From UHGV virus genome UHGV-0109738: a DNA stretch of 64,000 nt; one strand, given 5' to 3'. The notes under the pieces were generated by a model, which was not told the DNA's origin, did not search any database, and saw only the letters and a program-made list of their open reading frames with translations. The DNA comes from a virus. Below, one piece after another: positions 46,520 to 55,527 of the stretch. Position 1 is the stretch's first letter, and each line of letters starts with the position of its first letter. The translations under genes and the position numbers were made by a program.

Positions 46520-46561
46520 AATGGCGCCATTATGTGATCCACATCACGCAATGGCGCCATT
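46520..46561. promoter_or_regulatory. twin 12-bp perfect palindromes AATGGCGCCATT flanking a CRP-like TGTGA-N6-TCACG
   Basis: aatggcgccatt at 46520 and 46550, 30 bp apart; centre atgTGTGAtccacaTCACGc. Confidence 0.45.
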
Positions 46562-46570
46562 TTGTAAATT

Positions 46571-47335
46571 TCAGTCCGGTAAAACGCGGTTAAGCGTAGT
46601 ACGATTGATGGCCCGGTCGTTAGCCAGGAATACAGCACGGGCAAAGCCGCGCGGCGTTAGTGAGCGGATCATCTTAGTGCGTTTCGACTTTCCTCCTAAC
46701 TTCGCGTGCTGTTTGCTGTCTTCCCATTCATCCGGCATAGGTACAGGCCGGAATAGCGGCTGCTTAAATCCATTCCCGCACCAGATACAAGTTTTCTTCG
46801 TGTATGCGTCGCGGTCGGCGATGTATTCCGGGAAAGCAGGATGTTTGTCGTCTTCCGGCAGGTAGCCACCGTAAGCGCACGGATTGAAGATAAAATCCGG
46901 CTTACGCCATAACGTTGACAGTGCGCCCACCGGATTTTCCACCATCCACGGGACGTGATACATGTCAGCCAGCGTTTCTACCAGTTTTGCGTTATATGCC
47001 GCCTTCACCTGGAAGTCAGGATCTTTTTCACGCTTGCTGGCAAACCAACGAGCGTCGGACACGGCTAGATGGTCGCATGGCGGGAAGGCCAGAATAATGT
47101 CAGGATCTGGATAAACAGACAAATCAGGGGAGAACATCACCAGGAAATGGCTGTCAATCCATACGTTAACGTATTCAATATTCGGATGAATGATTTTTAC
47201 GCCTTCATAGTCGCCGTGGTTAGCGCCGTCATAGTTGAAGCAATAACACTTATAGCCAGCGTCAGCCCAATCTTTAACGGCGTACCCGCTGCCGTCGTAC
47301 AACGACCACACCACCCAATTTTTAAGCCCGCTCAT
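46571..47335 (-). CDS. putative DNA (cytosine-5)-methyltransferase-like protein
   Basis: Motifs resembling C5-MTase I (SLYDGSG), IV (FPPCDHLAVS) and VI (ENPVG); 254 aa. Confidence 0.45.
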   Translation of the reverse strand: MSGLKNWVVWSLYDGSGYAVKDWADAGYKCYCFNYDGANHGDYEGVKIIHPNIEYVNVWIDSHFLVMFSPDLSVYPDPDIILAFPPCDHLAVSDARWFASKREKDPDFQVKAAYNAKLVETLADMYHVPWMVENPVGALSTLWRKPDFIFNPCAYGGYLPEDDKHPAFPEYIADRDAYTKKTCIWCGNGFKQPLFRPVPMPDEWEDSKQHAKLGGKSKRTKMIRSLTPRGFARAVFLANDRAINRTTLNRVLPD

Positions 47336-47877
47336 TTTCTGCCCTCAAACGTAAAATAGCGGCGCATGATGATAGTGATCACCGTTACCGCTGCCATTTT
47401 TGAGATGAATTGAATAGCTGATATTTCCGGTATAAATGCCATAAACGATAGCGTGGGAAAAATTAACGCATCGCCGATAGCTGAAGCTATATTTGCAGGC
47501 CAGCGTTTCGAATCGAAATCACCAGGTAAAACACGGTAAACGCCGCCAGAAATAAGCGCACAGGAAACAACCGCAACGAATGACGCGATCGCCACCATTC
47601 CTGCATCATAGTTTATCAGCACCGTAATTGCGCCAGCGGCGGCGCATGTTGTAGCCGACCATTTCAGGCCGCCGTCATATAACAAGAAGTCACGGATCAT
47701 CATATTGACACACACTGCGGCTACCGTGGTGATCGGAATTACCCACGGGCCACAGTGGTTAACAATAAGATTGATGATCACGAAAACGGCGACATAAACG
47801 CAGGCTAATAACCTGTCAATTGTCACCCTTTTCATTTGGATCGTACCTCTTATCACGAATAGCTTCAGCTCTATCAA
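47332..47877 (-). CDS. hypothetical multi-pass membrane protein
   Basis: ORF track; several hydrophobic segments. Confidence 0.45.
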   Translation of the reverse strand: MIELKLFVIRGTIQMKRVTIDRLLACVYVAVFVIINLIVNHCGPWVIPITTVAAVCVNMMIRDFLLYDGGLKWSATTCAAAGAITVLINYDAGMVAIASFVAVVSCALISGGVYRVLPGDFDSKRWPANIASAIGDALIFPTLSFMAFIPEISAIQFISKMAAVTVITIIMRRYFTFEGRK

Positions 47878-48115
47878 ACTTCAAATCAAGTCGAGTTGAA
47901 ATGCAACCACATTGAGGGTTAAGCATAGAAGGCGGCAATCCCTTACAACTGGTTATAGCTTCATCTTTTATTAATCCACCATTCAGCGGCATATCAAAAA
48001 CAGCCTGTTTCTTTCTTTGTTCTTCCTCACGTTCCGTTAATATTTGCTCAGCTTTTAGCGCGTTATAGCTAATTAAATCAATTAGTGTGTCTGTCGGATC
48101 GCTGTTATTGCTCAA
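47816..48115 (-). CDS. hypothetical protein (99 aa)
   Basis: ORF track. Confidence 0.35.
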   Translation of the reverse strand: MSNNSDPTDTLIDLISYNALKAEQILTEREEEQRKKQAVFDMPLNGGLIKDEAITSCKGLPPSMLNPQCGCISTRLDLKFDRAEAIRDKRYDPNEKGDN

Positions 48116-48309
48116 AATAGCCTCTAAACGCGCCTCCTTGAGACAAATTAGCAGATCCCATACATCAAGCGTGGTTAAATCTGCCCCCCTTCTTAGCGTT
48201 GTAAATAGTGGCTATTTTTGGCGCTGATTTTTCCTCTTTTTTGTCGTAGCCGTTTTGCTTACCTCTTTGCTCTATGGTTTCTGATGCAAGTCTTAATAAA
48301 TCTGCTGCC

Positions 48310-48849
48310 TTAGTCATTATTTGCGCCTCTCGCGTATAGCTCTTTACGTGTTATCTGCGTGAAAATACATTCATGTCTGCACCGTGGATGCCAGATCAAG
48401 AACAAGCTCCCTTTATTGTTTCCGCTTGCTGGTTTCCCTGTCGCGGCATTTATAAAAGCCAGCCGCCCGCGCGTAATTAATCGGCATTCGTTTGCCGTCT
48501 CCACGCCGTTCATAAACCAGTTAACAGAAATGTCAGCGGGCAATAACATTACACAGCCAATGTGATTTCGTTGATGTTCAAGCGCCGCCTTATCAACGAA
48601 TGGCCCCGGATTAGAATATGGCGGATTCATCCAGACATACTCACCAGGCATCGCCACCGCTCCCCACGGATAATGGAGCGTGTCCATTTCTTCGGTTATA
48701 TATCGCGGTATTAATGCGTTTGCCTTGTTTGCCGCCACATCCGCGACGAATTCGAATTCCAGATCCATTCCTCTAAAAACAGGTTTCGGCGTCTGCCATA
48801 GGTCTTTTATTTCTTTCGGCGTGTTGCTGCCGCCGTAATCATTTTTCAT
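48310..48849 (-). CDS. phage-type DNA N6-adenine methyltransferase (Dam family)
   Basis: Catalytic NPPY motif (VWMNPPYSN); size 179 aa typical of phage Dam. Confidence 0.7.
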   Translation of the reverse strand: MKNDYGGSNTPKEIKDLWQTPKPVFRGMDLEFEFVADVAANKANALIPRYITEEMDTLHYPWGAVAMPGEYVWMNPPYSNPGPFVDKAALEHQRNHIGCVMLLPADISVNWFMNGVETANECRLITRGRLAFINAATGKPASGNNKGSLFLIWHPRCRHECIFTQITRKELYARGANND

Positions 48850-53897: not shown

Positions 53898-54314
53898 GTT
53901 AATGAGCGGCTTAACATCTTTCAACTAATCCCGCAATCATCGCCGTTCCCGGCGTGACCTTGCTCACTCCAAGCAAGCTGACTCGTCGCCTTGCGTGCGG
54001 TTTCGTGGGGGATGTAACGCTTTAAACACCCCATGCGCCTTGTTATCAGTGCCGCTTTCGGTCCCCCATCGGGGAGTTACTCCACGGTTGACAAGGTGTT
54101 AAGCCTGATTTTTAAAGTGCCAGGAAGTTGCTTTTGTTACCTGCGACCTTCCTTTGACTCGCAATATACGCCCCGTAAAACATCGAGTCAATCCATTTTG
54201 TATACTTTTTTAAAATATTTTATATGCTATTGATATTTAAACAATAAATAACGTTTTCTGTTTACGTTTTGGCGTTTTTAAGGCAAAGAAAAGCCGCCAT
54301 CCGGCGGCTAATGT

Positions 54315-54962
54315 TTATGGCAGGTTTACGATCTTCGCATCAACCACCACGCCTATAATTTTCGATTCTGGATTCATAGGGATTGGCGGATACAGCGGAT
54401 TGAGCGAACGTAAAAGCCTTTGACCTCCATCAATAATCAACTGTTTAAACGTCGGTATCTGCCCTTCCTCAAGCTGGGCTATAACCAGTTTGCCGTCAAT
54501 AGCTGGCGCGTGCGGGTCCACAAGTATCATCGTCCCCGCCGGGATGCTCAACCCCTGCGGCGCGTTCATTGATTCACCTTTGGCAACCAGCCAGTAACTG
54601 TCATCTGAACAAATAACGCTAGTCGTAACGTGTCGTAATGCTGAACGCCTTGCGTCATCCATATTGTTTACTGTGTCCTTCCAGTCAATAACCGGGTAAC
54701 TACCTAAATCACGCGGCGGCACGGCCTGAAGTGTATTAGAAACAGAATCATCAATGACCATGCCATCATGTGTAACAGTAAACTGCCGACGACCAAGCTC
54801 GCGCATAATCCGCGCAATATCTTCAAGATTTGGCTCTCGGCGACCGTTCAGCCAGTGTGACAGGCCGCCTTTAGTTATCCCCATACGATCCGCGAGTGAA
54901 TCCTGGCTCATGCCCTGCGCCCGCATGAGCTGCTTTGCTAAGTCATACCATTTTGTTTTCAT
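54315..54962 (-). CDS. CI-type prophage repressor (HTH plus S24 LexA-like peptidase domain)
   Basis: N-terminal HTH (MSQDSLADRMGITKGGLSHWLNGRR); C-terminal S24 motifs (AKGESM..; K in QLIID). Confidence 0.85.
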   Translation of the reverse strand: MKTKWYDLAKQLMRAQGMSQDSLADRMGITKGGLSHWLNGRREPNLEDIARIMRELGRRQFTVTHDGMVIDDSVSNTLQAVPPRDLGSYPVIDWKDTVNNMDDARRSALRHVTTSVICSDDSYWLVAKGESMNAPQGLSIPAGTMILVDPHAPAIDGKLVIAQLEEGQIPTFKQLIIDGGQRLLRSLNPLYPPIPMNPESKIIGVVVDAKIVNLP

Positions 54963-55266
54963 GTCGCTACCCTATAACCTCAAAAAGTTTGATGCAAGTC
55001 ACAAAACGTGTATTTTAAGCCTTGATCTTAAAATTCCATTTTGTAAACTTGCAGACAAGGTAAGGCCATACTTGCAAAGACGCAAGGAAAAAGATACGGA
55101 AGGCACAAAAAGGCACTTACCTTATGCTCTTTAAAAATCCGGTGTCGCTGCGAAGCGAAAAACAAATATCACGCAACGGCGGGATCTGTTGAGCGGTCAG
55201 TCACTGCTATCTAATGCTAATGGGATGCCCGCCCGCGCGTTCACTCTAACCATAGGAGAAAATGCG

Positions 55267-55524
55267 ATGAGTATAAACATGATTAGTAAAGCATGGAACG
55301 TAAAACTTAATAGCCCGATTCAAAAACTTGTCTTAATGGCTCTGGCTGAAAAGGCAGATAACAAAGGACGGGTACATGATGCATCACGCAAAGAAGTAGC
55401 CGCAATGTGTGAACTTCCTGTTCATACGGTACATGATGCCTTCGCCGCGTTAATGGATAAAGGATTTGTTTGTCGTCTTGATGCATTCAGTGATGTCTAT
55501 GTAGTGATGTTGCCGGAGGGATGA
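55267..55524 (+). CDS. putative early regulator / winged-helix protein (Cro- or CII-position)
   Basis: 86 aa from ATG with AGGAG SD; first rightward gene after the cI-divergent region. Confidence 0.4.
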   Translation: MSINMISKAWNVKLNSPIQKLVLMALAEKADNKGRVHDASRKEVAAMCELPVHTVHDAFAALMDKGFVCRLDAFSDVYVVMLPEG

Positions 55525-55527
55525 TCT

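What the first reader, a model, noticed from the sequence alone, without database searches (positions are those of the whole stretch)
46571..48849. Two distinct DNA methyltransferases with a membrane protein between them
A protein with C5-cytosine methyltransferase-like motifs (FPPCDH, ENPVG) and a phage Dam-type N6-adenine methyltransferase (NPPY) are both in the early leftward operon, with no cognate restriction endonuclease seen. This points to orphan methyltransferases used for anti-restriction or epigenetic control. Several regulatory motifs in this prophage contain GATC.
Basis: partly seen in the sequence, partly recalled or inferred. Interest (0 to 1): 0.45.

Follow-up and report, generated by a model that had tools for sequence, protein, structure and literature searches.

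The report
Two orphan phage DNA methyltransferases, known kind
A prophage in an E. coli chromosome carries two stand-alone DNA methyltransferase genes (one for adenine, one for cytosine) with a transporter-like membrane gene between them; the same gene set is already annotated in published relatives, so the finding is real but ordinary.

Summary
The three ORFs and the quoted motifs are at the stated coordinates on the minus strand. The 179-aa protein is a clear phage Dam (PF05869, TIGR01712). The 254-aa protein hits no Pfam or NCBIfam model. It is nevertheless 60% identical to the 'Dcm-like' mini C5-cytosine methyltransferase of phage KarlJaspers/K42. That enzyme makes 5mC and triggers retron Ec86. 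The fold matches DNMT3-type enzymes best.

The locus is the early operon of an mEp021-group prophage, where both genes are already annotated as methyltransferases. No restriction enzyme is nearby.

- A fourth gene (DUF6378) lies between Dam and the membrane gene. It is frameshifted here.
- The membrane protein is a divergent VUT/YhhQ-family transporter.
- GATC is not enriched.
- This copy of the cytosine enzyme has Asp at a glycine that is invariant in 117/117 homologs, so its activity is uncertain.

One oddity remains. In eight other phages this VUT gene abuts a DpdA-like gene, but this lineage has no DpdA, and the VUT gene is still strongly conserved.

Verdict: real, already known in kind, low interest.

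The parts
48310..48849 (-). Phage Dam-type N6-adenine DNA methyltransferase, 179 aa, NPPY at residues 75-78
   Evidence: PF05869 E 1.9e-51 over profile positions 1-167 of 169. TIGR01712 equivalog 140 bits, cutoff 97. phrog_111 4e-63. PADLOC orphan MTase 4e-24. 40% identical to the KarlJaspers Dam-like MTase. dN/dS 0.07-0.11 against relatives.
47816..48317 (-). DUF6378 gene (homolog of mEp021_31), disrupted in this window by a +1 frameshift in the G-run at 48184-48189; read as ORFs 48165-48317 and 47816-48115
   Evidence: DNA alignment with mEp021 and MagusPhagus shows GGGGGG against GGGGG/GGGCG. Intact homologs hit PF19905 at 2e-8 over residues 7-90. The tblastn match is split over two frames, while 44 other genes are intact.
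47332..47835 (-). Six-helix membrane protein, a divergent short member of the VUT (YhhQ, queuosine-precursor transporter) family; ATG start at 47835, alternative TTG at 47877; stop overlaps the next start by 4 bp (ATGA)
   Evidence: No direct Pfam hit. 37/40 remote homologs hit PF02592. 120/120 profile hits carry PF02592. hhalign against bona fide VUT proteins gives probability 99.7%, E 4e-26. AF2 pLDDT 89 with six helices. dN/dS 0.03-0.055.
46571..47335 (-). Minimal 'Dcm-like' C5-cytosine DNA methyltransferase, 254 aa: motif I YDGSG 13-17, motif IV PPC 85-87, motif VI ENP 133-135, K180/K181; carries G94D at an invariant motif-IV glycine
46521..46560 (-). Strong RNA hairpin 11 nt after the methyltransferase stop codon, built from two copies of the palindrome AATGGCGCCATT, with GATC (46536-46539) in the apical part; position corresponds to predicted terminator t4 and the nutR2 region of mEp021
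   Evidence: MFE -31.5 kcal/mol, z -5.0, 0 of 200 shuffles fold as well. mEp021 TERM_4 is annotated at the same relative position. nutR2 lies downstream of this gene in mEp021.

Best explanation
The region is a conserved accessory block in the early, N-like (Gp17)-antiterminated operon of an mEp021-group (mEpimmI) temperate siphophage. The phage is integrated in an E. coli chromosome. The block encodes two self-sufficient orphan DNA methyltransferases. One is a PF05869 phage Dam, expected but not shown to target GATC. The other is a minimal, DNMT3-like 'Dcm-like' C5-cytosine methyltransferase, from the family whose KarlJaspers/K42 member makes 5-methylcytosine. Inference: both are made only after induction or infection. 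They methylate the rapidly replicating phage DNA more completely than the host's limiting Dam and Dcm can. Progeny would then be pre-protected against restriction enzymes blocked by these marks. The known cost is detection by retrons (Ec86/Eco1 for the cytosine enzyme, Sen2 for Dam activity). The two genes between them are not methyltransferase partners: a DUF6378 protein of unknown role (broken here) and a VUT-family transporter homolog.
For: Identity of the enzymes. Catalytic residues C87, E133 and K180/K181 align with K42 C82, E128 and K175/K176, with identical spacing. K42 Dcm raises 5mC on msDNA by LC-MS, and the four-residue mutant does not. Operon context: the same gene order with ribosome-binding sites, terminator and nut sites is seen in mEp021, and the genes overlap by 4-20 bp. 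No REase appears in three annotations. The cytosine enzyme is self-sufficient: it stands alone, without a VUT neighbour, in T1-like and large lytic phages. It occurs in 1516 of 50,697 phage records. All three genes are under purifying selection. The prophage is otherwise intact, with 44 of 45 tested genes full length. Host Dam is limiting for high-copy DNA.
Against: No curated HMM recognises the 254-aa protein. This copy has Asp at a glycine that is invariant in 117/117 homologs and may be weak or dead. Target sequences are not established. The K42 assay was done in a dcm+ host, and its CCWGG assignment is indirect. The window enzyme also carries the 'SxQ' variant of a variable loop, whereas K42/KarlJaspers carries 'NPGW'. 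BASEL found no simple link between such genes and restriction resistance. GATC specificity of this particular Dam rests on family knowledge, not on a test.
Confidence: 0.75

Rival explanations
1. The cytosine methyltransferase gene in this particular prophage is inactive or crippled, so only the Dam is functional here. On this reading the block is starting to decay.
For: G94D lies in motif IV, seven residues after the catalytic Cys, where 117/117 homologs and all six close relatives have Gly. The neighbouring DUF6378 gene is frameshifted.
Against: The ORF is full length and all other catalytic residues are intact. The rest of the prophage is intact. The frameshift sits in a homopolymer and may be a sequencing error. 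The effect of G94D was not measured.
Confidence: 0.3
2. The methyltransferases mainly serve phage regulation rather than anti-restriction. Examples would be timing of transcription, replication or packaging, or lysogeny control, through methylated GATC or C sites.
For: Phage P1 Dam is needed for packaging (established knowledge). A GATC sits in the loop of the hairpin just downstream.
Against: GATC and CCWGG counts are close to expectation in the window and in the early region. No clustered sites were found. The same enzymes occur in unrelated lytic phages with different regulation.
Confidence: 0.15
3. The four genes form one pathway. The VUT transporter imports a precursor (a 7-deazaguanine or another small molecule) that the methyltransferase-like proteins or DUF6378 use to make a modification other than plain methylation.
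For: Gene order Dam-DUF6378-VUT-Dcm is kept in a relative diverged to 53-66% protein identity. VUT and the cytosine enzyme overlap by ATGA. VUT is the most constrained gene. In 8/8 other phages the same VUT abuts a DNA-modifying DpdA-like gene.
Against: The cytosine enzyme works without VUT in K42 (5mC by LC-MS) and lacks a VUT neighbour in most phages. The conserved order comes from one lineage, so it is not independent evidence. There is no DpdA-like ORF in the window.
Confidence: 0.07
4. The 254-aa protein is not a DNA enzyme but an RNA or small-molecule methyltransferase that only resembles C5 DNA methyltransferases, as DNMT2 does.
Against: A 60%-identical homolog raises 5mC in DNA (msDNA), and phage escape mutants map to it. 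The best fold matches are DNA enzymes of the DNMT3 type.
Confidence: 0.03

Closest known systems
Dcm-like C5 cytosine methyltransferase of Escherichia phage KarlJaspers (Bas06, bas06_0055) / phage K42 Dcm (bioRxiv 10.1101/2023.08.16.553469)
   Same: 60% identity over 234 residues. Same motifs, and identical spacing of the catalytic Cys, the ENP Glu and the KK pair. Same small size and DNMT3-like fold. Orphan and phage-encoded.
   Different: The window protein has 18 more residues. It carries the 'SxQ' rather than the 'NPGW' variant of the loop before KLGGKS. It has G94D. It sits in a temperate phage's early operon next to a VUT gene rather than alone in a lytic T1-like phage.
mEp021_30 to mEp021_33 of Enterobacteria phage mEp021 (MH706966; PMC11893012) and the same genes of Escherichia phage MagusPhagus
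   Same: Orthologous block at 85-92% DNA identity with identical gene order. Already annotated as putative adenine MTase, hypothetical protein, putative 6-TM membrane protein and putative cytosine MTase.
   Different: In the window the DUF6378 gene is frameshifted and the cytosine enzyme has G94D. mEp021 carries the other (NPGW) loop allele.
Eukaryotic DNMT3A/3B catalytic domain and bacterial C5 MTases such as M.HhaI and E. coli Dcm (PF00145)
Phage Dam family PF05869/TIGR01712 (phage T1, VT2/933W and HP1 Dam; GATC specificity from my own knowledge)
   Same: Full-length HMM match above curated cutoffs, NPPY motif, about 180 aa, orphan.
   Different: Nothing notable. The target sequence of this member is untested.
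E. coli YhhQ and the phage VUT-DpdA two-gene cassette (e.g. Pectobacterium phage PEAT2 gp18-gp19)
   Same: Same transporter family (hhalign probability 99.7%). 31-35% identity to the phage VUT proteins. Same small six-helix architecture.
   Different: Here no DpdA-like gene follows. The downstream slot is occupied by the C5 methyltransferase.

Membership tests
C5-cytosine DNA methyltransferases (PF00145 superfamily) | Curated family HMM (PF00145 or NCBIfam) matches the protein | tested here: not met
   No Pfam hit at E<=0.01 and no NCBIfam hit at E<=0.1. Only 2 of 120 listed homologs carry a precomputed PF00145 hit.
C5-cytosine DNA methyltransferases (PF00145 superfamily) | Motif I (F/Y-x-G-x-G AdoMet loop), motif IV (P-C catalytic cysteine) and motif VI (E-N-x) | tested here: met
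   YDGSG 13-17, PPC 85-87 and ENP 133-135. G15, S16, C87, E133, N134 and P135 are invariant in the 34-sequence alignment; G17 is nearly invariant.
C5-cytosine DNA methyltransferases (PF00145 superfamily) | Motif VIII (Q-x-R-x-R) and a target-recognition domain between motifs VIII and IX | tested here: inconclusive
   No QxRxR was seen. An invariant Y178 and K180 and a conserved C-terminal LGGKSxRTKMIRSLTPRG are present instead. The intervening region is only about 60 residues.
C5-cytosine DNA methyltransferases (PF00145 superfamily) | Fold of the catalytic domain | tested here: met
Phage 'Dcm-like' mini C5-MTase family (phrog_757; K42/KarlJaspers Dcm) | Full-length sequence similarity to the characterised member, with conserved C, E and KK residues | tested here: met
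   phrog_757 7e-87. 60% identity, E 8e-100, to bas06_0055. C87/E133/K180/K181 align with C82/E128/K175/K176.
Phage 'Dcm-like' mini C5-MTase family (phrog_757; K42/KarlJaspers Dcm) | Invariant glycine of motif IV (PPCxxLxxSG) | tested here: not met
   The window has Asp94. 117/117 homologs with the motif have Gly, as do all six close relatives.
Phage 'Dcm-like' mini C5-MTase family (phrog_757; K42/KarlJaspers Dcm) | Formation of 5-methylcytosine in DNA | not testable with these tools
   Shown for K42 Dcm by LC-MS of msDNA. Not shown for this protein.
Phage Dam N6-adenine methyltransferase (PF05869 / TIGR01712) | Family HMMs above curated cutoffs over the full length, and the (D/N)PPY catalytic motif | tested here: met
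   174.5 bits against 28.1 and 140 bits against 97.05. NPPY at residues 75-78.
Phage Dam N6-adenine methyltransferase (PF05869 / TIGR01712) | Methylation of adenine in GATC | not testable with these tools
   Family knowledge only. A literature search on PF05869 gave nothing decisive.
Orphan (solitary) methyltransferase | No cognate restriction endonuclease in the neighbourhood | tested here: met
   The neighbours are ipe-like, DUF6378, VUT, NinF, NinG, RusA and Q. No REase appears in the mEp021, MagusPhagus or PGAP annotations. The best PADLOC models for the Dam are oMTase.
VUT family transporters (PF02592, YhhQ) | Family HMM or profile match | tested here: met
   The direct Pfam scan is negative. 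However, the L004 ortholog hits Vut_1 at 5e-4, 37/40 and 120/120 homologs carry PF02592, and profile-profile probability is 99.7%, E 4e-26.
VUT family transporters (PF02592, YhhQ) | Six transmembrane helices and conserved polar residues | tested here: met
   Six helices in the AF2 model, pLDDT 89. Y14, N22, G29, R48, D49, N75, N115, D122, Q142 and K146 are invariant across 44 sequences including the window.
VUT family transporters (PF02592, YhhQ) | Transport of preQ0/preQ1 | not testable with these tools
   Known for E. coli YhhQ (cited in PMC6884629). Untested for the short phage subfamily.
Phage 7-deazaguanine DNA modification system (DpdA-based) | Presence of a DpdA (TGT-like) DNA transglycosylase | tested here: not met
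   tblastn with two DpdA-like proteins (PEAT2, Opt-719) finds nothing in the window, best E 0.16. None is annotated in the related prophage.

The most novel reading that the evidence does not exclude
The VUT-family transporter is functionally tied to the DNA-modification genes around it even though the usual partner, DpdA, is absent. It might supply a precursor for a modification not yet described in this phage group. Alternatively it might feed a host-encoded deazaguanine system. Either way, the block would be more than two plain methyltransferases.
Probability: 0.08. Interest if true: 0.55.

Novelty: already known. Interest (0 to 1): 0.2.

Why it matters
It matters little as a discovery. Orthologous genes carry the same annotation in the published mEp021 genome. 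Both enzyme families are common in coliphages, and the cytosine family has an experimentally studied member. The case is useful mainly as a caution: a real, widespread phage C5-methyltransferase family is invisible to Pfam and NCBIfam, and PGAP sometimes calls it 'hypothetical protein'. The DpdA-less but strongly conserved VUT gene is a small open question about what phage-encoded YhhQ-like transporters do.

Tried and rejected
- A single-sequence PDB search with the 254-aa protein found nothing. A family profile gave only sub-threshold DNMT3B matches, E 0.38. The fold searches were what settled the matter.
- I considered whether the Dam could belong to the non-specific adenine methyltransferases Hia5/Hin1523. 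Those are EcoDam/T4Dam-like DPPY enzymes of about 281 aa, a different family. Rejected.
- I tested whether the 247-aa gene after VUT in T1-like phage Opt-719 is a Dcm-like enzyme, which would have been independent evidence of a VUT-MTase link. It is not. It is DpdA-like, 37% identical to PEAT2's.
- A search for a DpdA-like ORF in the window found none.
- The BFVD fold search with the membrane-protein model was uninformative, best E 0.06. The afdb50 library was unavailable.
- PDB sequence searches for the Dam, DUF6378 and PEAT2 DpdA-like proteins found nothing meaningful.
- The PADLOC scan gave no hit for the cytosine enzyme, VUT or DUF6378.
- The promoter and terminator consensus scan of the block found no more sites than shuffled sequence.
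- Literature searches on PF05869 gave no specificity data.
- Tests for GATC or CCWGG enrichment or avoidance found none.
Full report
**What is there**

On the minus strand the window holds three ORFs: 48310-48849 (179 aa), 47332-47877 (181 aa from TTG, or 167 aa from the ATG at 47835) and 46571-47335 (254 aa). FPPCDH is at residues 84-89 and ENPVG at 133-137 of the 254-aa protein. NPPY is at residues 75-78 of the 179-aa protein.

The genes are tightly packed. The membrane gene's stop overlaps the 254-aa gene's start by 4 bp (ATGA).

Downstream lie NinF-like, NinG (PF05766, 3e-67), RusA (PF05866) and a Q antiterminator (PF03589).

**Genomic setting**

The 2.8-kb block is 85.5-92.3% identical in DNA to seven complete phage genomes: MagusPhagus, mEp021, mEp010, mEp013, mEp044, mEp515 and mEp554. 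It is up to 91.6% identical to prophages in 35 of 5426 complete E. coli genomes.

These are the 'mEpimmI' Nus-dependent temperate siphophages described in PMC11893012. In that work the block lies in the early operon between nutR1 (upstream of the N-like gp17) and nutR2, which sits just after the cytosine methyltransferase gene.

In the mEp021 GenBank record the four genes are already annotated. They are named putative adenine methyltransferase, hypothetical protein, putative membrane protein with 6 TM, and putative cytosine methyltransferase.

The window is a chromosomal prophage. Bases 1-6000 are 100% identical to E. coli chromosomes such as Nissle 1917. The right end carries a replicative helicase and an integrase. 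Of 45 MagusPhagus genes tested, 44 are full length in one frame in the window.

**The adenine enzyme**

It matches PF05869 at E 1.9e-51 over nearly the whole profile, and TIGR01712 above its cutoff. The best PADLOC models are 'orphan methyltransferase'. It is 40% identical to the Dam-like enzyme of the T1-like phage KarlJaspers.

Membership of the phage Dam family is therefore established. GATC specificity is inferred from the family (my own knowledge of T1, VT2 and HP1 Dam). It was not tested.

**The cytosine enzyme**

Pfam and NCBIfam give nothing. A single-sequence PDB search is also empty. Even so, four lines of evidence agree.

- It matches phrog_757 'DNA methyltransferase' at 7e-87. It has more than 1100 homologs of about 227-260 aa and is found in 1516 of 50,697 phage records. 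BASEL phages annotate it as 'Dcm-like C5 cytosine methyltransferase'.
- A 34-sequence alignment shows invariant G15, S16, C87, E133, N134 and P135, plus a conserved C-terminal LGGKSxRTKMIRSLTPRG. This is a C5-MTase motif I/IV/VI pattern with a very short region in place of a target-recognition domain.
- There is experimental evidence for the family. The preprint 10.1101/2023.08.16.553469 studied the 711-bp dcm gene of phage K42, whose genome is 95.4% identical to KarlJaspers.
  - Phage mutants that escape retron Ec86 map to this gene.
  - Expressing it raises 5mC in msDNA by LC-MS.
  - A C82A/E128A/K175A/K176A mutant is inactive.

  I fetched KarlJaspers bas06_0055, which is exactly 711 bp. 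The window protein is 60% identical to it (E 8e-100), and C87, E133, K180 and K181 align with those four residues.

**Caveats on the cytosine enzyme**

- The window protein has Asp at position 94, seven residues after the catalytic Cys. All 117 homologs with the motif have Gly there, as do all six close relatives. Its activity may be reduced.
- The family splits about evenly into two variants of the loop before KLGGKS: 'NPGW' (57 plus 4 near-variants) and 'SxQ' (52). The window is SxQ, while mEp021 and KarlJaspers are NPGW. The target sequence therefore cannot be transferred.
- The CCWGG assignment for K42 is itself indirect. It rests on mutating the msDNA motif in a dcm+ host.

**The genes in between**

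Relatives encode a 129-170 aa protein here with an N-terminal DUF6378 domain (PF19905, 2e-8). In the window one extra G in the run at 48184-48189 splits it into two ORFs. This is either a real frameshift or a homopolymer sequencing error.

The membrane protein has no direct Pfam hit. An exhaustive HMMER search found 139 relatives. Of 40 scanned, 37 hit PF02592, the VUT family. A profile search returned 120 of 120 proteins with PF02592, named 'queuosine precursor transporter' or 'VUT family protein' by their sources. Profile-profile comparison of the phage group against these gives probability 99.7%, E 4e-26. The AF2 model has six helices (pLDDT 89), and the family-invariant polar residues are kept.

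**An unexplained point**

Outside the mEp021 group, 14 phage records hold a 29-35% identical VUT gene. I examined eight of these loci: PEAT2, Opt-719, LHE71, Phc, RCIP0319, Tbat1_6, ECO111 5-P and AB3P2. In all eight the VUT gene directly abuts a phrog_887 'queuine tRNA-ribosyltransferase' (DpdA-like) gene.

The DpdA-like label is annotation-level only. Pfam does not hit these proteins.

In the window and its relatives no such gene exists. The slot after VUT is the cytosine methyltransferase instead. This order is kept in a relative (L004) that has diverged to 53-66% protein identity.

VUT is nevertheless the most constrained of the three genes, with dN/dS 0.03-0.055. The Dam is at 0.07-0.11 and the cytosine enzyme at 0.05-0.13. 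Hutinet et al. noted that phage YhhQ homologs do not correlate with any deazaguanine group.

The cytosine enzyme does not need VUT. In a T1-like contig and two large phage contigs it stands alone, as it does in the two BASEL Drexlerviridae phages examined. I therefore treat the adjacency as shared ancestry, or as replacement of one gene of an older cassette. I give a functional link a low probability.

**Other checks**

- GATC occurs 277 times, against 298 (Markov) or 243 (zero-order) expected. CCWGG occurs 133 times against 148 expected. Neither is enriched or avoided.
- A strong hairpin at 46521-46560 (MFE -31.5 kcal/mol, z -5.0) follows the methyltransferase stop. It corresponds to mEp021's predicted terminator t4 and the nutR2 region.
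- No restriction enzyme is present in any annotation of the block.

**Mechanism: shown and inferred**

Shown here:
- family membership of both enzymes and of the transporter;
- orphan status;
- early-operon context;
- purifying selection;
- an otherwise intact prophage.

Shown in the literature:
- a close family member makes 5mC and triggers retron Ec86;
- over-expressed Dam activity methylates msDNA and triggers retron Sen2;
- host Dam is limiting for high-copy DNA.

Inferred: the enzymes are expressed on induction, saturate methylation of progeny DNA, and so protect it from methylation-sensitive restriction. The BASEL study found no simple correlation between such genes and restriction resistance, so this benefit remains a hypothesis.

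**Verdict**

The system is already known: orthologs are annotated in published genomes, and both enzyme families have been described. Interest is low. The DpdA-less VUT gene is the only feature worth a follow-up.

Noticed in passing
window 47816-48317 (G-run 48184-48189): The DUF6378 gene between Dam and the membrane gene is split by one extra G in a run of six. It is the only one of 45 tested phage genes that is not intact. It may be a real frameshift or a homopolymer sequencing error.
   Followed up: yes
window 47054-47056 (codon 94 of the 254-aa ORF): Asp replaces a glycine of motif IV that is Gly in 117/117 homologs and in all close relatives. The activity of this copy is uncertain.
   Followed up: partly
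L010 4004-5229; L011 4001-5304; L012-L017: In eight other phages the short VUT gene directly abuts a DpdA-like (phrog_887) gene, which looks like a two-gene cassette. The mEp021 lineage has the VUT gene but no DpdA-like gene, and the VUT gene is still under strong purifying selection.
   Followed up: partly
window residues about 200-212 of the 254-aa protein; homologs P0001-P0120: The Dcm-like family splits about 50/50 into 'NPGW' and 'SxQ' variants of the loop before KLGGKS. Both alleles occur within the mEp021 group (window and MagusPhagus against mEp021). This suggests a swappable segment that may determine the target sequence.
   Followed up: partly
window 46521-46560: A strong hairpin is made of two copies of the palindrome AATGGCGCCATT flanking a smaller stem with GATC in its apical part (z -5.0). 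It sits at the position of mEp021's predicted terminator t4, near nutR2.
   Followed up: partly
window 1-6000 and 54000-64000: The left end is 100% identical to an E. coli chromosomal island (RepL, H-NS-like and DUF6387 genes; for example Nissle 1917). Prophage genes matching MagusPhagus run from about 11.4 kb to at least 64 kb, with an integrase-like gene at 62739-63992.
   Followed up: partly
L009 49202-49901 (NZ_CP095538.1) compared with L003 3078-3866: PGAP names the same Dcm-like gene 'hypothetical protein' in some E. coli genomes and 'DNA cytosine methyltransferase' in others. No Pfam or NCBIfam model covers this widespread family.
   Followed up: no
L004 9188-9415: The diverged relative carries a Lar-type restriction-alleviation gene (PF14354) just after its Q gene. 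That is a second anti-restriction function in the same operon. I did not check whether the window has one.
   Followed up: no
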